Of a stretch of DNA of 64,000 bases, positions 33,935-61,993 are shown one piece after another. Under the pieces are notes generated by a model. The model saw only the letters and a program-made list of their open reading frames with translations. It made no database searches and was not told the DNA's origin. The DNA is from an uncultured Lentimicrobiaceae bacterium (GTDB lineage Bacteria; Bacteroidota; Bacteroidia; Bacteroidales; WCHB1-69), in the NCBI GenBank assembly GCA_964598505.1, contig CAZRCF010000001.1, positions 73,480 through 137,479 of the forward strand, in the 5' to 3' direction. Positions within the stretch are counted from its first letter, which is position 1. The number at the start of each line of letters is the position of its first letter. The translations under genes and the position numbers were made by a program.

Positions 33935-34810
33935 CTAATCTCCTTTTGTTAATTTAACTAAATCAATAATTCTACCCACTGTTGTACTATATAAAGTATC
34001 CCATTGTACATTACCATCAATTTGTATTTGAAATTCACTGAGTTTTTTATCTAAAAGTAATTTATCATATATTTGGGGAATTACAATTCCTTTAACCTTA
34101 GTCATATCAAGATTTGATTTTTGAAATAACTTTGGGTTTCTAAATATACAATAAATGAAATTGCCGGCGCTACCCATTGAAAATACTTCTTTTCCCATAA
34201 TAAAATTATACATGCTCATTCCATTAATAAACATATCTTGTTTCGCCCATTTACCTGGAATTGAAATATTAGAAAGTTCAAGATTGTTAATATTATCTTT
34301 GAATTCAACATTAAATCTATTAACAATATCTGAAGTCTTTGAAAGTCTTTCTTTAGAATGTAATTTATCATTTAGAACTACATTTTCAATAATTTCCCGA
34401 AGCATATCCTGTGTCATTTTGGCAGCGTTGCTCCGAACTACCTGAATACCAGTATACTCAATTTCTGGATTATCTAATATCTTTCCTTTTTTAGCTTCAA
34501 GTTTATAAGCGTAGTTCTTCTTCACATCAAGAAACATTATTGCACTCATTAGCATTTCAGACTTAAAGTAAGTTGCATTCTGATCAATTGATATGTTTGA
34601 TTTAGGTAGAAAATACTCATTTAAATATTTCGTAACTGCTACATTAATATCATTTGATACTTTGTCTGCTATTACTAATTTTTCTTGGGTTGTTAAATTT
34701 TCGGAATTTTTAGCTGGGATTGCTATAAAAAGTGAGTCGGTGTCACCATAAAGGATATGTTTTAAAGCTCCTGGCTTCTCGACATCATCGTAAAAATTTT
34801 TAGAGAGCAT
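33935..34810 (-). CDS. family-B DNA polymerase, C-terminal fragment (motif C plus thumb)
   Basis: LYGDTDSLFIAIP is PolB motif C and VKKNYAYKL is the KKRY-type motif. There are no exonuclease, motif A or motif B sequences in this ORF. Confidence 0.85.
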   Translation of the reverse strand: MLSKNFYDDVEKPGALKHILYGDTDSLFIAIPAKNSENLTTQEKLVIADKVSNDINVAVTKYLNEYFLPKSNISIDQNATYFKSEMLMSAIMFLDVKKNYAYKLEAKKGKILDNPEIEYTGIQVVRSNAAKMTQDMLREIIENVVLNDKLHSKERLSKTSDIVNRFNVEFKDNINNLELSNISIPGKWAKQDMFINGMSMYNFIMGKEVFSMGSAGNFIYCIFRNPKLFQKSNLDMTKVKGIVIPQIYDKLLLDKKLSEFQIQIDGNVQWDTLYSTTVGRIIDLVKLTKGD

Positions 34811-35778: not shown

Positions 35779-35988
35779 TTATTTCTTCCTTTCTACAAAA
35801 ACAATATGTCCATCGATTGTTCTTGGTTCATGTGTTGATTCAGGGAATATATTATTATTTTTCTTATTAGTTACTTTAATTTTGTAATCAACTAATTCTT
35901 TAAATGCAACTTTCAAAGGAACTATTTTTGCTTGATCTTTTCTTTTTTTATCCGCTTCATTCATACTGATTTTTTCTCCTTCTTCCAA
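35779..35988 (-). CDS. hypothetical protein
   Basis: 69-aa ORF that overlaps the rtcB 3' end by 28 nt. Confidence 0.45.
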   Translation of the reverse strand: MEEGEKISMNEADKKRKDQAKIVPLKVAFKELVDYKIKVTNKKNNNIFPESTHEPRTIDGHIVFVERKK

Positions 35989-37247
35989 GGTTTTTCTTCT
36001 GAATCATCTTTCATGTTATGAATAGGAATTATTCTATCGATAATTGTAGCTGTCGGTTCAATACATTTAATGATTAAATCTGAATCTTTATAAGCTTTCT
36101 TACACTCATCAAGTGTATTAATTCCAATAGAAGTTGAGAAAATTCCTTTTTTATCCATACCTTGTTTATATTCTTCTAAACTTAAAACTTCTTTTGCTTT
36201 AGTTCTAGACAACAATCTTCCTGCTCCATGTGGTGCTGAAAAATTCCATTCTGAATTTGATTTACCTTCACATATAAGAATACCATCTTCCATATTTAAA
36301 GGAATGATCATTTTTTCACCAATGTAAGATCTAATAGCACCTTTTCTAATTATATTATCTTTAGGATCAATATAATTGTGAACAATTTCAATAAGATCTA
36401 AAAATGAATATTTATTACCTAATTCAATAATTGAAGCTATAATATCATTCATTATATACATTCTATTTGTCATTGCATACCAGGAAGAAAATTCCATATC
36501 TTCAAGATATAGTTTTTTATTTTCTCCTTCAATATAATCAAGTTCTGTTTTTTTATGATTATTTATTTCTTGTCTTAATTTAAGTATTCTGTCATTCCAT
36601 TCTTCTTTTGAATAACATATTTTTATTTCAGATAAACCTACATTAAAATTTATTGTATCTTTTATAGAAGCTACGTTTTGCCAATATTCACAAACCTTCT
36701 TTCCAAGATTTCTAGATCCAGTATGAACAGTCACCCAGGTATCTTCAGTTGATATAGATTTCCCCATTTCTATGAAATGATTCCCAGAACCGAGAGTTCC
36801 GATACTACATTGGGCATAAAATGGATCTATTCCAATTCTTTTACAAAAAGATTTAAACCATTCATAAGACCATTTTGGATTTACATATTCCCACACTATA
36901 TCTCTTTCAAAATTGAGAACAGGTTTTTTTCTAATGTTTTGACCAAATGGAATTTTCTCTCTTATTTTCTTATCTAATTCAATTCGATCTAATTCAATTT
37001 TTCCAATATTAAATGATAACATTCCACAATTTCCATCCACACCAACTACATTAGGGCTTACTTTATCACCAACCAGCATAGTAAATCCAATAACAGATCC
37101 TGTTCCTGAGTGACAATCTGGCATAATTGATACTGGGTTTGTGAATGCTTCATGATTAATCATTTCAATAATTTGTAATCTACATTTTTCATCAACAGTA
37201 TCGATCATTATTTTAGCAGAGGTGTATTTTCCAGTAAGTTCAATCAT
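35961..37247 (-). CDS. rtcB: RtcB-family RNA 3'-phosphate ligase
   Basis: The RtcB signature strings are present: VGVDGNCGM, GSGNHFIE, HTGSRNLG and SAPHGAGR. Confidence 0.85.
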   Translation of the reverse strand: MIELTGKYTSAKIMIDTVDEKCRLQIIEMINHEAFTNPVSIMPDCHSGTGSVIGFTMLVGDKVSPNVVGVDGNCGMLSFNIGKIELDRIELDKKIREKIPFGQNIRKKPVLNFERDIVWEYVNPKWSYEWFKSFCKRIGIDPFYAQCSIGTLGSGNHFIEMGKSISTEDTWVTVHTGSRNLGKKVCEYWQNVASIKDTINFNVGLSEIKICYSKEEWNDRILKLRQEINNHKKTELDYIEGENKKLYLEDMEFSSWYAMTNRMYIMNDIIASIIELGNKYSFLDLIEIVHNYIDPKDNIIRKGAIRSYIGEKMIIPLNMEDGILICEGKSNSEWNFSAPHGAGRLLSRTKAKEVLSLEEYKQGMDKKGIFSTSIGINTLDECKKAYKDSDLIIKCIEPTATIIDRIIPIHNMKDDSEEKPWKKEKKSV

Positions 37248-56225: not shown

Positions 56226-58319
56226 TTATTTGCCTCCTTTTAAAGATTCTAAATACATTTCAGCAATGAGCTGGGCTGCTTTCAAACTTAGACGTCCTTG
56301 GGTAGTTATACTCTTAGCTAATTGTTTGTTACTAAATCTATAACTTTGTTGACCAAATAATCCATATAACGTATTCATTGTGACCTTGATTGCTTTTTGC
56401 CGCATCTCAAAAAATGAATAATCATTAGTTCCTTTTTTAAATTGATCTCTTTCTTTCTCATAATTATTTCTAAGGTCTTTAAGATTTTTTAAGAAATCAA
56501 TAAATAATCCTTTTTTAGTTTCATGTTTTACAAACAAGCAACCAGATAAAGATAATATTAAATTATTTGTTTTCAAATAGTTCTCAAAAGACTTTACAGG
56601 AATTTTTATTATCTTAATTGTTGGTTTTAAAATATCTTCAATTATATATAGAAAATCTGGATCTGTCGGCAAAGAATCATTTATAAGATACTCATTACAA
56701 AAACTATTGTATTCTTTACTGTTCGGATGTACATCATCAAATAAATCAATCATTGGTAAGAAATATCTTCTTATAATCATGTAATCTTCAATCTCTTGTT
56801 GATTAAATAATTGAGATAATGATTTCTTATGATCTTCTATTTTCTTCAATAAATATGCTATAATTAAATAATAATTTTGAACGTATTCACCTTTGTTTTG
56901 TGGCTTTAATTTATCTACATATTTGACAGTCATTTCATATAAAGAAAGATATATACTCTGTGGTATCGGCATTTTAGCTATTAGAGCTTTATCTATTGCT
57001 GCTAAAAACTTATATGTTAACGGGTCGATAATTTTTCCAAAGAATGTATCAAACGATATATTTAATTGAGTAATCATTGATGGATATAATGAACTAGCAT
57101 CCAAATCTACTATGATACCATCTTTACTTGTTAAAATTTGTGCTCGTGATTGTTTCACATAAGCACCTGGAAAATGACCAGTAATTGAACGATAAGTTTG
57201 TTGACTTATTTCTTTTATGGTCTTTTTCATTTGTTTTGGGATATAAAGAGTTGCCATTTCATCATCTGAAATAGATACGGTCGATTCATCTAATATTCCA
57301 AATCTTGTAAATTTACCTTCTTCATTTAATTTGTAATTAACATAAGTATCAAATAAGATTGACGAACCTCTTAAAGAAGCAGTAAATGGTGTTTTCATTA
57401 ATCTTCTTAAGAGATTGTAAGATTCAATATGTTTTAATTTTGAATTCATTCTAACACATAAAGCTACGTCAATTATATTATATAGAAGAAAATTAACAGG
57501 ATCTTTTTCATAGAAAGTATCAAGAGTCATTCCCTCTGATTTATATTCTTTTTTCCTTAAATCTAATTCTGCATCAGATACAAAATCTAATGCATAACTA
57601 CTCTGTTTTGACCCCATATTTAAACCACCGTCGTCTCTTGGTTTGTACGCGTATAAGAGATCTAAAACAGGGTATTCTGGAATCTTAATTAAGAATTCAT
57701 TATTGAATTTTTCAACTTTTATTTTACCGAATTGTGATAAGATCTTGCCGATTTCAACTTCATTCTTATTTAATATATTACTTAATCTAAAATAAATATA
57801 AGGCAAATCGAATCTATCAGTTGCCCAACCAGAAAGAACACTTGGATCAATTTCTTTAATTTTATTCCAACATGCTTTAATTAAATCTGTTTCATTATTA
57901 AAAACATATATTTCCAAACTCTCACCATCAACAATATATTTATCATCGGCAAGATCTTTTGTAAAAGCTTGTATAAGATTCGGAATTTCTTCTTTTTCTG
58001 GAAATTTTTGAATATTACTATGTCCTAATAAATAATAAGATCTAAATATTTTATCAAATGTGTTATAAATTGTGATTGCATTTATTGGAAATTTAGCTAT
58101 TTCTGGTTTTGGAAATATTCCAGCATTGCTAGTGTATACTTCAATATCCAAAAATAAAATATTCAGTTGTTGATCTTTATCGATCACATCTGTTCTATTT
58201 TTTAAATAATTTTGTATACTATAATATTGTTGATAGTCTAAATCCAATCCATAAACTTGATACGGGTTTATATTCATATCTTTAAACTCTTGAAAAGAAA
58301 AAGATTGCAAAGCTTTCAC
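56226..58319 (-). CDS. family-B DNA polymerase, N-terminal fragment (3'-5' exonuclease plus palm motifs A and B)
   Basis: Exo I is FLDIEVY, Exo II is DRFDLPYIYFR and Exo III is LLYNIIDVA. Motif A is DLDASSLYPSMI and motif B is KVTMNTLYGLFG. The ORF ends before motif C. The GTG start is uncertain. Confidence 0.9.
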   Translation of the reverse strand: MKALQSFSFQEFKDMNINPYQVYGLDLDYQQYYSIQNYLKNRTDVIDKDQQLNILFLDIEVYTSNAGIFPKPEIAKFPINAITIYNTFDKIFRSYYLLGHSNIQKFPEKEEIPNLIQAFTKDLADDKYIVDGESLEIYVFNNETDLIKACWNKIKEIDPSVLSGWATDRFDLPYIYFRLSNILNKNEVEIGKILSQFGKIKVEKFNNEFLIKIPEYPVLDLLYAYKPRDDGGLNMGSKQSSYALDFVSDAELDLRKKEYKSEGMTLDTFYEKDPVNFLLYNIIDVALCVRMNSKLKHIESYNLLRRLMKTPFTASLRGSSILFDTYVNYKLNEEGKFTRFGILDESTVSISDDEMATLYIPKQMKKTIKEISQQTYRSITGHFPGAYVKQSRAQILTSKDGIIVDLDASSLYPSMITQLNISFDTFFGKIIDPLTYKFLAAIDKALIAKMPIPQSIYLSLYEMTVKYVDKLKPQNKGEYVQNYYLIIAYLLKKIEDHKKSLSQLFNQQEIEDYMIIRRYFLPMIDLFDDVHPNSKEYNSFCNEYLINDSLPTDPDFLYIIEDILKPTIKIIKIPVKSFENYLKTNNLILSLSGCLFVKHETKKGLFIDFLKNLKDLRNNYEKERDQFKKGTNDYSFFEMRQKAIKVTMNTLYGLFGQQSYRFSNKQLAKSITTQGRLSLKAAQLIAEMYLESLKGGK

Positions 58320-58409: not shown

Positions 58410-58778
58410 TTATTTAACTAATTTTAAATATGATCTTTCATGTTTACTTTCGATTTTTTCTGGTAATGGAACCGGAGCATCTGCATCTTGTTTTTTAGTT
58501 ATAGCTTCTGGTATTTTTACTTCATACTCAACTTTTAATAATTGATGTGGAATACCACCCATAGTAAATTCTTCTCCACGAATTTGTTGATTATCTAATT
58601 TCCAAACAGTTTCTCTTAATTTAAAATCTTTAGTTGGAACTAATGGGTAGAATTTAACGTTCCACCATCCCGGCTTATAATCTGGAGTTACATCAATAAT
58701 TTTAATATAAAATCCTTGAACTTTATTAACTTTTACTAAGACAATTTCACCATTATTTGTGATTACGGAATTATCCAT
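58410..58778 (-). CDS. hypothetical protein
   Basis: 122-aa ORF with AGGAG RBS. Confidence 0.55.
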   Translation of the reverse strand: MDNSVITNNGEIVLVKVNKVQGFYIKIIDVTPDYKPGWWNVKFYPLVPTKDFKLRETVWKLDNQQIRGEEFTMGGIPHQLLKVEYEVKIPEAITKKQDADAPVPLPEKIESKHERSYLKLVK

Positions 58779-58821
58779 TTCTGACTCCTATAATTTGGCA
58801 CTTTGTGTGCTGTATCATTCA

Positions 58822-58950
58822 TTATTCCTCCCAATGTCCCTGACAATCACAATTTTCAATATTACAATTTTGCCAACCATGGTTTTCTTGATCATGATCA
58901 CATGTACAATTTACAAAGTTTATTTGTTCTTCATTATATTCATCATCCAT
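58822..58950 (-). CDS. hypothetical 42-aa Cys/His-rich protein
   Basis: Below the track cutoff, with AGGAGGCAG RBS. Hand-translated as MDDEYNEEQINFVNCTCDHDQENHGWQNCNIENCDCQGHWEE. Confidence 0.45.
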   Translation of the reverse strand: MDDEYNEEQINFVNCTCDHDQENHGWQNCNIENCDCQGHWEE

Positions 58951-58967
58951 TTCTGCCTCCTGTAATG

Positions 58968-59000
58968 AAAAATTGGTGGGAAGATTTCTCTTCCCACCAA
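58968..59000 (-). terminator. rho-independent terminator (class II)
   Basis: On the minus strand, TTGGTGGGAAGA-GAAA-TCTTCCCACCAA is followed by TTTTT. Confidence 0.7.
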
Positions 59001-59147
59001 TTAAATGGGCACTTGGTGTGCAATAGGTCTTTCAACCAGGTCGCGTATGCGACCCTTCTATTAGGTTACCAAACCACCATTTTTAAAAAGGTATAGGGAC
59101 TAATATAGATGTCGACTTCTCTAACGCCAAACCTACCTTTCTAGTAT
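59001..59147 (-). ncRNA. unassigned structured trailer between tRNA-Met and the terminator
   Basis: 147 nt with no ORF. It contains a GGGTCGC-ATAC-GCGACCT hairpin, a GGTT-GAAA-GACC hairpin and an AAAGGTAGG...CCTATACCTTTT pairing. Confidence 0.25.
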
Positions 59148-59222
59148 TGGTAGCGAGAGCTGGAATCGAACCAGCTTATACAAGCTTATGAGGCTCGTGA
59201 GTAACCACTACTTTATCTCGCA
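59148..59222 (-). tRNA. tRNA with a CAU anticodon (Met, or Ile2 if lysidine-modified), CCA encoded
   Basis: Hand-folded. The anticodon arm is CGAGC-CTCATAA-GCTTG and the T arm is GCTGG-TTCGATT-CCAGC. The acceptor is TGCGAGA/TCTCGCT with a U1-U72 mismatch. It starts 7 nt after the Ro60 stop. Confidence 0.75.
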
Positions 59223-59228
59223 ACGATA

Positions 59229-60788
59229 TTAAGCTTCTGACTCGTACTGTTTCATCAGTCGAGCCTTAAATGTATCAAAATCAATTAGAGCTTCAATCAT
59301 CTTGATGATTTTACCATCGAGTCCTGAGATACGGACAACCTTCGAACTGGGTTTGAAGACTGATTTTTGATTAGGAGCTACATTAATTAGCAAGACTTTG
59401 CCTGCCAGATGATCTGGCATAATTCTGCGATATGCTTCAATGTTACACTCCTCTACCCAAGTTACTTCGTCTGTAATGATGACGAACAAATCCATTTCTG
59501 GATTATTCTTCAATGTCCACTCGATAGCATTCATTAATTCAGTACCACCATTACAAACAATTGAATTCTGAATCTTTTTAGCTATATCATTCGGACCGAA
59601 ATTGTTAAGCATGGGTTTAAAAGTTGATGTAATATCTTCAATTCCAGCAGATCCATGTCCTCCGTAGTTTTTCGACGCAAATGTATAGAACTTAAAATCC
59701 TTTAAGAACAATCCATTCAACATCGATAGAAATTTAGAGCCAGTTCGATGTCCTTCTCCTTTCATTGATCCTGATCGATCATATAAAATGACAGGCTTAG
59801 ATGCACGGCACTTAAAGGATACGTACTTTCTGAGAATTTCATCGCACACATCCTCAATTTCTTGAGGAACTCGGATATGTTTATTATATCCACTGTGTTC
59901 GATACTTTCCAGAAAAATCAGATCAAACGGATTGATGAATCTTAATGCAGATCCACCCTGAAAGAGTGAAGTTAAACGAGTTTTCAATGTACCAGCATCC
60001 TCTCCTTCTAAGAACGATAAATTCTTGATGAGTGAATTAATGGGAAGTTTAGCCACGTTTAATTTAACATACTCTTGCTTTTGTTCATGTGAAACACGAT
60101 CATCACTAATCGCTGCAGTTGTATGTTCTGATTTCTCGATCGCTCCAGTCTCTTTATTAACGACTGTTACCAGTTTCGATCCTTTACTATCTTCGATGAT
60201 TGCTTTGTAAAGCAAACTCATTTCAGACGTAGCAGGTTTTGGCTTCAAGATCTTGATTAAGTCTTTCAGTTTGAATTCACGGTTAAGCATCTTACGACGC
60301 TTTAGAGTGAGATCACCATAGGATTCAAGTGACATCCTAAGAGACAAAAATGTTACTTTTGGAATTGACTTTAGACCACCGATAATTCTTCCTTTCCAGT
60401 AACTTAAGAAGTTAGCTAGAAAGTCAGGACGTGTAAACACATCATGAATGATTCTGTAACAGCTATGTCCAGCAGCTTCAAGACGAGCTACCATAATTAC
60501 GGGAGATAATCTGATTCCCATAATTTTTCCCAAATACCACGCGAGAGCGATAACAAACTGAGGTTCAGTTGCAATCAGCTTATCAATTAATCTCTCGAAA
60601 TTTTCCAATTTGGCTTTTATACCAAGATAGAAGCTATTTCGAGGAACGAACGATGAAGCTTCAAGGAACAACGCTTGGTCATTATGCATCTTATAGACTG
60701 TGTAACCTTCTTCGTTCTTGATTTTTTTACTTGCTTTCGCCCTCGCCGCATACACCTTGTTTTTCATCACTTTGTTAATTTTGTACAT
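59229..60788 (-). CDS. rsr: Ro60-like protein (TROVE domain plus C-terminal vWA/MIDAS)
   Basis: NEEGYTVYKMHNDQALFLEASSFVPRNSFY parallels the Ro60 N-terminal pattern N..dGyv....d...l.rfL..Gs..gtYY. The vWA MIDAS residues are YDRSGSM ... GGTEL ... FVIITDE. The ATG at 60788 has an AAAGGAG RBS. The track start at 60842 overlaps the promoter box. Confidence 0.75.
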   Translation of the reverse strand: MYKINKVMKNKVYAARAKASKKIKNEEGYTVYKMHNDQALFLEASSFVPRNSFYLGIKAKLENFERLIDKLIATEPQFVIALAWYLGKIMGIRLSPVIMVARLEAAGHSCYRIIHDVFTRPDFLANFLSYWKGRIIGGLKSIPKVTFLSLRMSLESYGDLTLKRRKMLNREFKLKDLIKILKPKPATSEMSLLYKAIIEDSKGSKLVTVVNKETGAIEKSEHTTAAISDDRVSHEQKQEYVKLNVAKLPINSLIKNLSFLEGEDAGTLKTRLTSLFQGGSALRFINPFDLIFLESIEHSGYNKHIRVPQEIEDVCDEILRKYVSFKCRASKPVILYDRSGSMKGEGHRTGSKFLSMLNGLFLKDFKFYTFASKNYGGHGSAGIEDITSTFKPMLNNFGPNDIAKKIQNSIVCNGGTELMNAIEWTLKNNPEMDLFVIITDEVTWVEECNIEAYRRIMPDHLAGKVLLINVAPNQKSVFKPSSKVVRISGLDGKIIKMIEALIDFDTFKARLMKQYESEA

Positions 60789-60843
60789 GTTATCTCCTTT
60801 CGATTGAGAATAAAATTTATGAGCGGAATTGCCCATATACAAA

Positions 60844-60864
60844 ATTACTATTTCTATATGAAAC
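60844..60864 (-). promoter_or_regulatory. conserved promoter-like box (rsr/tRNA-Met unit)
   Basis: ATTACTATTTCTATATGAAAC on the + strand. Confidence 0.55.
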
Positions 60865-60870
60865 TTTTAA

Positions 60871-60911
60871 AAACAAAAAATAATTCCCCTGCCCATTTTC
60901 ATGGTTAGGGG
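60871..60911 (-). terminator. rho-independent terminator closing the ncRNA unit
   Basis: On the minus strand, CCCCTAACCATGAAAATGGGCAGGGG is followed by AATTATTTTTTGTTT. Confidence 0.6.
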
Positions 60912-60914
60912 AAA

Positions 60915-61420
60915 ATTAGTGAGCATACGAAAGGAGATTCAAAGTTAAACTTTGATCTTTTAATTTTTATTTATAAAATTTAGTCGTATGTAATGCTCGC
61001 TAGCTTTTTAATTTTTTTAGTGACCACTCTTTCGAGTGGCCAAATTGATGCGGATAGTTTATAGAACCCAAGTCTATTGCGGATTTCTCCGCGGCATATG
61101 TAATCCACATCAGCTCTATCGAAACGGATTTCTCCGATTGATTGTGTAACTGCTCCCTATAAAGAAGCAGTCAAATTGGCAGGGATAATTTTGCCGCCAG
61201 CTTTCGTTGGCTTGCCATTGGAGCGAGTTTCCCCGCGATTTTAATTAATTAGATTAATTAGTCGTATGTAATCCCTGCAAGCGAATTTTGCTCCGCGACC
61301 TCGCCGAACCTCATTGGGTTTGACACTCACCGGAGAGCTAATTATAAATGAAACTATCCCGTCGAACAGTTTCACTTTCAAATAAGAGATGAATCCGTCG
61401 ACTCATTCTTATTTTATAAA
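60915..61420 (-). ncRNA. large structured ncRNA candidate (about 500 nt) upstream of rsr
   Basis: It is bounded by promoter box 61421-61441 and terminator 60871-60911, is GC-enriched and has no RBS-led ORF. Four GAAA-capped hairpins lie at 61024-61039, 61079-61092, 61125-61136 and 61196-61211. A 14-nt exact repeat TAGTCGTATGTAAT lies at 60981-60994 and 61259-61272. Two 5' hairpins have related loops, GTCGACGGAT and GTTCGACGGGAT. Confidence 0.45.
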
Positions 61421-61441
61421 AGTAATATTTCTATATGAAAC
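61421..61441 (-). promoter_or_regulatory. conserved promoter-like box (ncRNA unit)
   Basis: AGTAATATTTCTATATGAAAC on the + strand. Its flank ATTTCTATATGAAACTTTTGAAT is identical to the tRNA-Gln box. Confidence 0.55.
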
Positions 61442-61462
61442 TTTTGAATATCAGAAAATTAT

Positions 61463-61993
61463 CTATTTGATTTTATTAATGAATTCCATAAAAAGGGAAC
61501 TAGAAATTTTAGTTTCTTTAGTAGGCGGTGCGAGCTGAGGTTTAGTTTCTTCTGGAATCTTTGGTATAGCTGATTTCATAGTTATTTCATGAATTCGTTG
61601 TCCCATGATTGCTTTCATCTTTGGAATATTAAGTAATTGTTCAAACAGGTCCAATCTTGTAAAGCGACTAGTTTGATAACCTTGATCCGCTATAATAACA
61701 TGAATTTTTTTCCAAGCTCTTGCCGATTGCAATATTGAATTTGCTTCATTAAATGTAATTTCCCTTTTAAGAGAGCTTGCTTTTTCTCCTTCAATATATT
61801 TGAATCGATTCATATCTACGACTTTATCAAGAACATCTTCAATCAATCCTAATATCAATCTTTCAGGAATTTCAAACTCTTTTTTATCATTCCATCTATC
61901 ATCAAGATTTTTAATATCGATTTTCAATTTAATAGCTTCTTTGATTGTTATTTTCTTTTTCTTTGGATCATAGATACTTAAATTAAGTTTCAT
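61463..61993 (-). CDS. hypothetical protein
   Basis: 176-aa ORF. Confidence 0.55.
   Translation of the reverse strand: MKLNLSIYDPKKKKITIKEAIKLKIDIKNLDDRWNDKKEFEIPERLILGLIEDVLDKVVDMNRFKYIEGEKASSLKREITFNEANSILQSARAWKKIHVIIADQGYQTSRFTRLDLFEQLLNIPKMKAIMGQRIHEITMKSAIPKIPEETKPQLAPPTKETKISSSLFMEFINKIK

What the first reader, a model, noticed from the sequence alone, without database searches (positions are those of the whole stretch)
59229..60788. Ro60/Rsr orthologue (TROVE plus vWA) encoded by a phage and co-transcribed with a tRNA
The N-terminal pattern is TROVE-like and the C-terminal MIDAS residues are DRSGSM...T...D. This matches Ro60, a ring-shaped RNA quality-control protein that in bacteria works with Y RNAs, and with exoribonucleases in the RYPER complex. 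In some bacteria it is encoded together with rtcB. This phage also carries rtcB (35961..37247) and has structured non-coding RNA on both sides of the gene. The unit runs: promoter box, rsr, tRNA(CAU) 7 nt after the stop, a 147-nt structured trailer, then a terminator. Phage Ro60 homologues have been noted before but are rare and functionally unexplored.
Basis: partly seen in the sequence, partly recalled or inferred. Interest (0 to 1): 0.6.

Follow-up and report, generated by a model that had tools for sequence, protein, structure and literature searches.

The report
Divergent phage Ro60 with tRNA
A 257-kb bacterial virus encodes a very divergent relative of Ro60, a ring-shaped RNA quality-control protein, and the gene sits between an array of small RNAs that are probably its partners and an initiator-like tRNA; this is a real but not unprecedented addition to the known phage Ro60 proteins.

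Summary
ORF 60788..59229 (-) encodes a 519-aa Ro60-family protein. A profile of its 26 relatives matches the solved Ro60 of Thermus phage phiLo over its full length (E 2.6e-35) and also matches human, Xenopus and Deinococcus Ro60. The predicted fold finds only Ro60 structures as its top 12 matches. The MIDAS residues D337, S339, S341, T416 and D440 are invariant.

Pfam's TROVE model gives no hit at all. Homology shows only at profile level, and through TROVE-positive intermediates.

A tRNA(CAU) starts 6 nt after the stop codon and has initiator-like marks. A 145-nt trailer and a strong terminator follow it. A recurrent phage promoter box precedes the gene. Co-transcription is inferred, not shown.

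RtcB is real but lies 22 kb away. It is absent from three other viral genomes of this clade.

The main addition lies upstream. There are three Y-RNA-like modules: a covarying 9-bp stem, then UACAUA, then RAUUU. They accompany this Ro60 clade across metagenomes, and in distant relatives they are interleaved with tRNA genes. An earlier report of this scan already described them.

Verdict: a new, divergent clade of a known kind. Phage Ro60 has been characterised since 2025.

The parts
59229..60788 (-). Ro60-family gene (519 aa, stop codon included): N-terminal TROVE-type helical repeats, about residues 20-330, and a C-terminal vWA domain with MIDAS D337/S339/S341/T416/D440
60838..60880 (-). Phage promoter box 2 (core TTTCATATAGAAATA at 60863-60849, then TAATTTTG), directly upstream of the rsr 5' UTR
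   Evidence: Repeat family D1. 13 copies against 1.8 expected. Invariant in five related loci
60818..60837 (-). Small hairpin at the start of the rsr 5' UTR (UAUGGGC/GCUCAUA). It covaries between loci: CACGGGU/GCCUGUG in L008
   Evidence: read from the alignment
59148..59222 (-). tRNA(CAU) with encoded CCA. It has a U1.U72 mismatch, A11:U24 and A73, but only two G/C pairs in the anticodon stem, so it is initiator-like with unresolved identity
   Evidence: The same position is occupied in L004, L006, L121 and L122
59003..59147 (-). 145-nt trailer between the tRNA and the terminator. It is moderately structured. The distal ~90 nt are shared with L004, with one compensatory change; the first ~57 nt are specific to this window
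58971..59002 (-). Intrinsic terminator: 14-bp perfect stem, GAAA-containing loop, U-run. It is conserved in all five close loci
   Evidence: (I9)
61415..61457 (-). Promoter box 1, which drives the upstream non-coding array
61179..61278 (-). Y-like module M1: P1 stem GCAGGGAU/AUCCCUGC, UACAUACGAC, variable hairpins, then CAAUUUG
61048..61110 (-). Y-like module M2: P1 stem AUGUGGAU/AUCCGCAU, UACAUAUGCC, two hairpins, then CAAUUUG
60919..61000 (-). Y-like module M3: P1 stem GCGAGCAU/AUGCUCAC (7 of 8 pairs), UACAUACGAC, then UAAUUUU
60876..60911 (-). Terminator of the non-coding array (CCCCU...AGGGG hairpin plus U-run). The stem covaries in relatives
35961..37247 (-). RtcB RNA ligase gene, 22 kb from rsr and overlapping a helicase gene at its start. 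It is in the same genome but not the same unit

Best explanation
The gene encodes a divergent, phage-specific member of the Ro60 family: a ring-type helical-repeat RNA-binding domain closed by a vWA/MIDAS domain.

It is transcribed from its own copy of a recurrent phage promoter box. The transcript also carries an initiator-like tRNA(CAU) 6 nt after the stop codon and a 145-nt trailer, and it ends at a strong intrinsic terminator.

Its most likely RNA partners are the three Y-RNA-like modules made from the separate transcription unit immediately upstream. Each module is a covarying 9-bp closing stem. UACAUA follows the 5' strand, and RAUUU follows the 3' strand.

By analogy with Thermus phage phiLo Ro60 and with bacterial Rsr/Y RNA/PNPase, the protein-RNA particle would bind structured or misfolded RNAs. 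It would engage or sequester a host 3'-to-5' exoribonuclease during infection. That would favour the maturation or survival of the phage's own stable RNAs, tRNAs among them.

Shown here: family membership by profile and fold, the conserved MIDAS, the gene/tRNA/terminator layout, and the exclusive co-occurrence and covariation of the modules.

Inferred: co-transcription, RNA binding, and the nuclease partner.
For: Protein.
- The profile of 26 homologues matches phiLo Ro60 (9L5Y/9KOP) over positions 14-488 at E 2.6e-35. It also matches human Ro60 (2.9e-12), Xenopus Ro60 (5e-12) and D. radiodurans Rsr (4.8e-5).
- The AlphaFold model has pLDDT 80.8 and pTM 0.79. Its 12 best PDB matches are all Ro60 proteins, aligned over 520-570 columns with TM 0.45-0.62.
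- The best viral matches are TROVE or Ro-like phage proteins.
- All 10 sampled second-tier full-length relatives carry Pfam TROVE at 50-107 bits.
- vWA_Ro60 is above its cut-off. PHROG 850 'RNA-binding protein' matches the full length.
- The MIDAS residues are invariant.
- The basic stretch K163-K184 aligns with the phiLo alpha8-alpha10 RNA-binding residues. K175, K179 and K184 sit opposite R169, R173 and R178.

RNA partners.
- A strict module pattern occurs 46 times in 36 kb upstream of rsr on the same strand, in 21 of 31 loci. It occurs 0 times in 282 kb elsewhere in those loci.
- In the 3.5-Mb assembly, the only convincing copies are the two next to rsr.
- All 8 P1 pairs show double changes. 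A ninth pair that was not used for selection is 94% paired with five pair types.

Unit.
- The tRNA adjacency recurs in L004, L006, L121 and L122.
- In L134 the order tRNA, module, tRNA, module, rsr fits into 355 nt.

Candidate host partners PNPase, RNase E/G and an RNB-family nuclease are encoded in the assembly but not on the phage contig.
Against: - There is no RNA or binding data.
- Pfam TROVE and the NCBIfam Rsr equivalog do not recognise the protein.
- The modules lack both hallmarks of known bacterial Y RNAs, the GNCGAAN0-1G motif and the tRNA-like domain, and Rfam gives no match at E<=10. The phiLo upstream region has no UACAUA. The modules could therefore have another role.
- The fold matches have rmsd of 8-10 A, and I could not inspect coordinates to confirm that the ring closes.
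- Assignment of the phage contig to this assembly as host rests only on binning, similar G+C and a shared U1.U72 initiator feature.
Confidence: 0.7

Rival explanations
1. The Ro60 protein is the RNA-holding platform of a phage tRNA-repair pathway. It presents tRNAs cut by host anticodon nucleases to the phage RtcB ligase, as proposed for the bacterial rsr-yrlBA-rtcBA operon. The adjacent tRNA and the tRNA arrays in relatives would reflect that task.
For: RtcB is present and intact in the same phage. The rsr genes of this clade repeatedly sit among tRNA genes. Jumbo-phage TROVE proteins were interpreted this way in PMC7824862.
Against: rtcB lies 22 kb away, in a different gene neighbourhood of helicase and polymerase genes. 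There is no RtcA. Three other viral genomes of this Ro60 clade, two of them complete, have no RtcB. The phiLo work points to PNPase rather than a ligase.
Confidence: 0.15
2. The downstream 'tRNA(CAU)' is not an ordinary decoding tRNA. It is the tRNA-like partner of this Ro60, standing in for the tRNA-like domain that canonical YrlA RNAs carry internally.
For: The upstream modules lack any tRNA-like domain. The tRNA is glued to the gene with a 6-nt spacer in five relatives. It has an unusual 1:72 mismatch and a weak D stem.
Against: It folds as a full cloverleaf with an anticodon arm, a T loop UUCGAUU, G18G19 and an encoded CCA. Its 1:72 U.U mismatch, A11:U24 and A73 are the same as in the assembly's own initiator tRNA. 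It is absent from L008, L010 and L011-L013, which keep the modules.
Confidence: 0.1
3. The protein is a vWA/MIDAS protein that only resembles Ro60 superficially, and it acts on proteins or DNA rather than RNA.
For: The single-sequence hits are weak: vWA_Ro60 at 29.8 bits against a cut-off of 27.7, and no TROVE hit.
Against: Full-length profile and fold matches go to Ro60 proteins only. Generic vWA proteins appear at E>1e-3 and cover only about 200 columns. Conserved structured RNAs travel with the gene.
Confidence: 0.03

Closest known systems
phiRo60 of Thermus phage phiLo (PDB 9KOP, 9L5Y; Hu et al., NAR 2025, PMC12135203)
   Same: It is a phage-encoded Ro60 of about 500 aa, and the best sequence and fold match here. 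Non-coding RNAs that bind it are encoded directly upstream. A basic patch in the same helices aligns. That phage also has no nuclease of its own.
   Different: Identity is about 20%. The phiLo protein is annotated as a TROVE-domain protein in the PDB, whereas this clade escapes Pfam TROVE. The phiLo Yrl RNAs were defined by a CGAA motif, and its upstream region has no UACAUA. The modules here carry UACAUA and RAUUU. phiLo has no tRNA abutting the gene in the 5.6-kb locus examined.
Bacterial Rsr with YrlA/Yrn1 Y RNAs and the RYPER complex (Chen et al. 2014, PMC4201824)
   Same: A ring-type Ro60 with vWA/MIDAS. Partner RNAs are encoded within a few hundred nt on the same strand, sometimes in several copies. 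There is a link to tRNA biology.
   Different: The NCBIfam Rsr equivalog is not met (15.9 against 900 bits). The modules have no GNCGAAN0-1G motif and no tRNA-like domain, and there is no Rfam match. Real tRNA genes flank the gene and the modules instead.
Ro-like proteins of actinophages and TROVE proteins of jumbo and crAss-like phages (PMC4201824; Iyer et al. 2021, PMC7824862)
   Same: They are phage-borne Ro60 homologues in genomes rich in tRNAs and RNA-repair genes. They are fold-level relatives.
   Different: Those proteins are recognised by standard TROVE models. The actinophage ones come with YrlA-type RNAs. No GenBank phage record matches this protein by tblastn at E<=1e-3.
Salmonella rsr-yrlBA-rtcBA RNA repair operon
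   Same: Ro60 and RtcB are encoded by one genome.
   Different: There is no operon here. The genes are 22 kb apart, there is no RtcA, and RtcB is absent from three other genomes of the clade.

Membership tests
Ro60/Rsr family (TROVE ring plus vWA) | Direct hit to the Pfam TROVE model PF05731 | tested here: not met
   No hit at E<=1 for the protein, for its 26 relatives, or six-frame on the contig
Ro60/Rsr family (TROVE ring plus vWA) | N-terminal helical-repeat domain homologous to TROVE at profile level | tested here: met
   The clade profile matches phiLo Ro60 over its full length at E 2.6e-35. All 10 sampled second-tier full-length hits carry Pfam TROVE at 50-107 bits
Ro60/Rsr family (TROVE ring plus vWA) | C-terminal vWA domain with MIDAS (DxSxS...T...D) | tested here: met
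   PF25045 vWA_Ro60 scores 29.8 bits against a cut-off of 27.7. D337, S339, S341, T416 and D440 are invariant and align to the Ro60 MIDAS
Ro60/Rsr family (TROVE ring plus vWA) | Overall Ro60 fold | tested here: met
   The AF2 model (pLDDT 80.8) has only Ro60 proteins among its top 12 PDB matches, over 520-570 columns, with TM 0.45-0.62
Ro60/Rsr family (TROVE ring plus vWA) | Closed ring with a central cavity | not testable with these tools
Ro60/Rsr family (TROVE ring plus vWA) | Binds a cognate small RNA | not testable with these tools
   Only co-occurrence and covariation of neighbouring RNA modules are shown
Bacterial Rsr (NCBIfam NF041674 equivalog) | Score above the equivalog cut-off | tested here: not met
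   15.9 bits against a cut-off of 900
YrlA-type Y RNA as partner | GNCGAAN0-1G motif plus tRNA-like T and D arms, or an Rfam match | tested here: not met
   No Y RNA family appears at E<=10 in 58700-61600. The modules can be as short as 42 nt and carry UACAUA instead
rsr-rtcBA RNA repair operon | rsr adjacent to rtcB and rtcA | tested here: not met
   rtcB lies 22 kb away. There is no RtcA in the assembly. There is no RtcB in three related viral genomes
Bacterial initiator tRNA (for the tRNA(CAU)) | 1:72 mismatch, A11:U24, A73, and three G:C pairs in the anticodon stem | tested here: inconclusive
   U1.U72, A11:U24 and A73 are present, and U1.U72 is shared with the assembly's own initiator tRNA. 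The anticodon stem has A29-U41, G30-C40 and C31-G39. The L006 copy has all three G:C pairs

The most novel reading that the evidence does not exclude
This clade of phage Ro60 and its UACAUA modules may be an integral part of phage tRNA gene arrays. The modules would be released from the same precursors as the tRNAs. The resulting Ro60 particle would then supervise or shield phage tRNA and stable-RNA maturation, for instance by tethering or blocking host PNPase or RNase at those precursors. Maturation of the abutting initiator-like tRNA by RNase P would set the 3' end of the rsr mRNA, which would couple Ro60 dosage to tRNA processing.
Probability: 0.2. Interest if true: 0.7.

Novelty: new variant of a known kind. 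Interest (0 to 1): 0.5.

Why it matters
What Ro60 does in bacteria and phages is still largely open. The only phage example studied so far (phiLo, 2025) comes from a thermophile and has RNAs of the classic CGAA type.

This clade offers three things:
- It extends the family beyond what standard domain models detect.
- It comes with a different, sharply defined RNA signature that can be tested directly by EMSA or RIP.
- Its genes are wired into tRNA gene arrays, which gives a concrete hypothesis for what phage Ro60 particles act on.

It also shows that annotation pipelines relying on Pfam TROVE miss these genes.

Tried and rejected
- Megablast of the locus and tblastn of the protein against 50,697 GenBank phage records gave no match.
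- Rfam at gathering threshold, and at E<=10 over 58700-61600, found only the tRNA.
- An exact 14-mer scan of IMG/VR with GGATTACATATGCC gave 107 hits. None has the module architecture, so they are chance matches.
- I tested whether the conserved flanks (uGYAG ... RAUUU) extend the P1 stem. Only 55% of cells pair, and only the first added pair covaries, so the flanks are not a standard helix.
- I looked for rtcB as a conserved companion of rsr. This was rejected.
- The trailer as a conserved RNA element was rejected. It is shared only with the closest relative, it is absent from L008, and its z-score is -2.4.
- A second Ro60 in the host bin was sought. There is none.
Full report
**The locus**

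The window is positions 73480-137479 of a 256,708-bp contig (C1). The contig lies in a 3.5-Mb, 563-contig metagenome-assembled genome.

The contig has phage features: split family-B DNA polymerase genes, a helicase, RtcB, five tRNAs, and a recurrent promoter box. Its G+C is 30.9%, close to the 29.8% of the rest of the bin.

On the - strand, ORF 60788..59229 gives a 519-aa protein, P0001. The ATG at 60788 follows GGAG at 60797-60794. The string CGAAAGGAGA is invariant in five related loci. The longer TTG start at 60842 would fall inside the promoter box, so I reject it.

**Is it a Ro60?**

Single-sequence searches are weak:
- Pfam gives only vWA_Ro60 (29.8 bits, cut-off 27.7) and no TROVE hit at E<=1.
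- The NCBIfam Rsr equivalog scores 15.9 bits against a cut-off of 900.
- PHROG 850 'RNA-binding protein' matches the full length at E 2e-14.
- phmmer against PDB sequences finds a 'TROVE domain-containing protein' (9L5Y/9KOP) at E 2.8e-8 over residues 24-207.

I collected 29 homologues from metagenomes and aligned 26 sequences, the query and 25 of them (A1). The profile matches:
- 9L5Y/9KOP over positions 14-488 at E 2.6e-35;
- human Ro60 at 2.9e-12;
- Xenopus Ro60 at 5.2e-12;
- D. radiodurans Rsr at 4.8e-5.

9L5Y/9KOP is the Ro60 of Thermus phage phiLo (PMC12135203).

An AlphaFold model built on A1 has pLDDT 80.8 and pTM 0.79. Its twelve best PDB matches are all Ro60 proteins (phiLo, Xenopus, human, Deinococcus), aligned over 520-570 columns with TM 0.45-0.62. 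Generic vWA proteins follow at E>1e-3 over about 200 columns. In the viral structure library the best matches are a TROVE protein of a crAss-like phage and Ro-like proteins of actinophages.

A search with the clade profile of 1.84 billion representative proteins gives 82 proteins at E<=1e-30 and 1388 at E<=1e-10. I sampled ten second-tier, full-length hits (E 1e-25 to 1e-34). All ten carry Pfam TROVE at 50-107 bits.

So the N-terminal half is a TROVE-type domain that the Pfam model cannot see directly. It is overturned by the profile, by the TROVE-positive intermediates and by the fold.

The MIDAS residues D337, S339, S341, T416 and D440 are invariant and align with those of human Ro60.

The basic stretch K163-K184 aligns with phiLo helices alpha8-alpha10. 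K175, K179 and K184 sit opposite R169, R173 and R178, whose mutation lowered Yrl2 binding.

I could not inspect model coordinates, so ring closure itself remains unverified.

**The transcription unit**

The motif TTTCATATAGAAATA occurs 13 times in the window at up to 2 mismatches, against 1.8 expected. Eleven copies are on the coding strand. One lies directly upstream of tRNA-Gln.

One copy, at 60863-60849, precedes rsr. A small covarying 5'-UTR hairpin at 60837-60818 follows it.

The tRNA(CAU) lies at 59222-59148, starts 6 nt after the stop codon, and has CCA encoded. The 145-nt trailer (59147-59003) folds only moderately better than shuffles (z -2.4). Its distal ~90 nt are shared with the closest relative L004, with one compensatory change (AAUAG/CUAUU to GACAG/CUGUU). 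Its first ~57 nt are specific to the window, and L008 has no trailer.

The terminator at 59002-58971 is a 14-bp perfect stem followed by a U-run. It is conserved in all five close loci.

Co-transcription of rsr and the tRNA is inferred from two things. A 6-nt spacer cannot hold a promoter or a terminator. The same adjacency is conserved in L004, L006, L121 and L122.

**The tRNA**

- It has a U1.U72 mismatch, A11:U24 and A73.
- Its anticodon stem has A29-U41, G30-C40 and C31-G39, not three G:C pairs.
- The bin's own initiator tRNA (contig C42) also has U1.U72 and A73.
- The phage tRNA is 64% identical to that initiator and 52% identical to the bin's tRNA-Ile2.
- The L004 copy keeps U.U. The L006 copy has C.C and all three G:C pairs.

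I read it as an initiator-like tRNA whose exact identity is unresolved.

**RNA partners**

In every homologous locus a non-coding gap of 390-830 nt precedes rsr, even where the neighbouring genes differ. In the window this stretch (61414-60881) folds with z -8.6. It has its own promoter box (61457-61415) and its own terminator (about 60911-60876).

Aligning five loci revealed a repeated module. An 8-bp stem, P1, has a 5' strand that usually ends GGAU and is followed at once by UACAUA(Y)GC. Variable hairpins come next, many with GNRA or UUCG loops. Then come the 3' strand of P1 and N-R-AUUU.

The window has three modules: 61278-61179, 61110-61048 and 61000-60919.

I defined a strict pattern: 8 of 8 pairs, plus UACAUA, plus the U-rich tail.
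- It occurs 46 times in 36 kb upstream of rsr on the same strand, in 21 of 31 loci.
- It occurs 0 times in the other 282 kb of those loci, both strands counted.
- In the whole 3.5-Mb bin it gives 29 hits. The other 27 are A/U-rich matches with many G.U pairs, scattered over other contigs. The only two on the phage contig are M1 and M2.

On 50 distinct modules trimmed to their conserved ends, all eight P1 pairs show changes on both sides. A ninth pair that was not used for selection is 94% paired with five pair types (GC 19, AU 16, UA 5, GU 4, CG 2). The conserved flanks beyond that do not form a standard helix. Because the modules were chosen for pairing in P1, the ninth pair and the positional enrichment are the independent evidence.

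Rfam finds no Y RNA family here even at E<=10. The modules lack the GNCGAAN0-1G motif and the tRNA-like domain that define bacterial YrlA RNAs (PMC4201824). The phiLo upstream region, where Yrl1 and Yrl2 were defined by a CGAA motif, contains no UACAUA.

After I had reached this reading, a look-up showed that an earlier report of this scan (e1-2826299) had already described the array as Y-like modules with a GAUUACAUA motif. My analysis agrees with it.

**Link to tRNA genes**

In more distant relatives the modules and rsr lie inside same-strand tRNA arrays. In L134 the order fits into the first 355 nt of the locus:
- tRNA-Ala at 5-76;
- module at 88-159;
- tRNA-Lys at 177-249;
- module at 262-313;
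- rsr starting at 355.

There is no room there for separate promoters or terminators. Association of this Ro60 clade with tRNA genes is therefore recurrent, in varying arrangements.

**RtcB**

The ORF at 35961-37247 (-) is an RtcB (Pfam 185.9 bits; PHROG 1075 at E 6.6e-111).
- It lies 22 kb from rsr, and its start overlaps a helicase gene.
- No RtcA is found in the assembly.
- Three other viral genomes with this Ro60 clade have no RtcB. Two of them, 29 kb and 276 kb, are complete by terminal repeats.

The rsr-rtcB pairing of Salmonella is therefore not reproduced here.

**Mechanism**

Most likely (about 0.7): the protein forms particles with the upstream modules.

By analogy with phiLo Ro60, these particles would engage a host 3'-to-5' exoribonuclease and act on structured RNAs during infection. 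phiLo Ro60 binds Yrl1 and Yrl2, forms ternary complexes with host PNPase and attenuates its activity. The RYPER complex of Deinococcus is a second analogy.

The bin encodes PNPase, RNase E/G and an RNB-family nuclease. None of them is on the phage contig.

The conserved RAUUU tail resembles the A/U-rich single-stranded sites favoured by RNase E. That resemblance rests on my own knowledge and was not tested. It could mark where modules are cut from precursors.

Rival readings are a repair platform for RtcB (about 0.15), the tRNA itself as the tRNA-like partner (about 0.1), and a vWA protein that does not bind RNA (about 0.03).

**Novelty**

Phage Ro60 homologues have been known since 2014 (PMC4201824). 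They were noted in jumbo phages in 2021 (PMC7824862). One was solved and characterised in 2025 (PMC12135203).

What is new here:
- a metagenome-only clade, with no GenBank phage match, that standard TROVE and Rsr models miss;
- its different RNA signature;
- its embedding among tRNA genes.

I rate it a new variant of a known kind, of moderate interest.

Noticed in passing
window 56226-58319 (-) and 33935-34810 (-): The family-B DNA polymerase appears to be split. A 697-aa exonuclease/N-terminal part lies next to the rsr unit. A 291-aa piece matching Pfam DNA_pol_B positions 223-356 lies 22 kb away beside rtcB.
   Followed up: partly
L134:1-355; also L133:344-1082 and L141:11-540: In distant relatives the UACAUA modules are interleaved with tRNA genes on the same strand, directly upstream of rsr (tRNA, module, tRNA, module, rsr). 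This implies one precursor processed by tRNA-maturation enzymes.
   Followed up: partly
G000 contig C42:1633-1705 (-): The bin's own initiator tRNA has a U1.U72 mismatch rather than the usual C1xA72. The phage tRNA(CAU) has the same mismatch, which hints that the bin is the real host lineage.
   Followed up: partly
window 58822-58950 (-) and 58410-58778 (-): A 42-aa Cys/His-rich ORF and a 122-aa ORF follow the rsr terminator with no promoter box of their own. They share a near-identical translation start region (AUUAyAGGAGnCAGAAAUGGAUrAU, repeat D4). They may depend on read-through of the terminator.
   Followed up: no
window 60818-60837 (-): A small hairpin at the very 5' end of the rsr mRNA covaries among relatives. 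It could stabilise the mRNA or serve for autoregulation.
   Followed up: no
L001 (IMGVR_UViG_3300025605_000001, 29,339 bp with direct terminal repeats): A complete 29-kb phage genome carries a 42%-identical Ro60 and three UACAUA modules about 1 kb upstream, with a short ORF in between. This clade is therefore not restricted to jumbo phages.
   Followed up: partly
window 59229-60788: The rsr gene is 37.4% G+C against 30.0% for the window. The flanking non-coding RNAs are 39-41%.
   Followed up: no
window 52137-52151 (-): A perfect copy of the promoter box lies directly upstream of tRNA-Gln (52124-52049). The box therefore also drives stand-alone tRNA genes.
   Followed up: no
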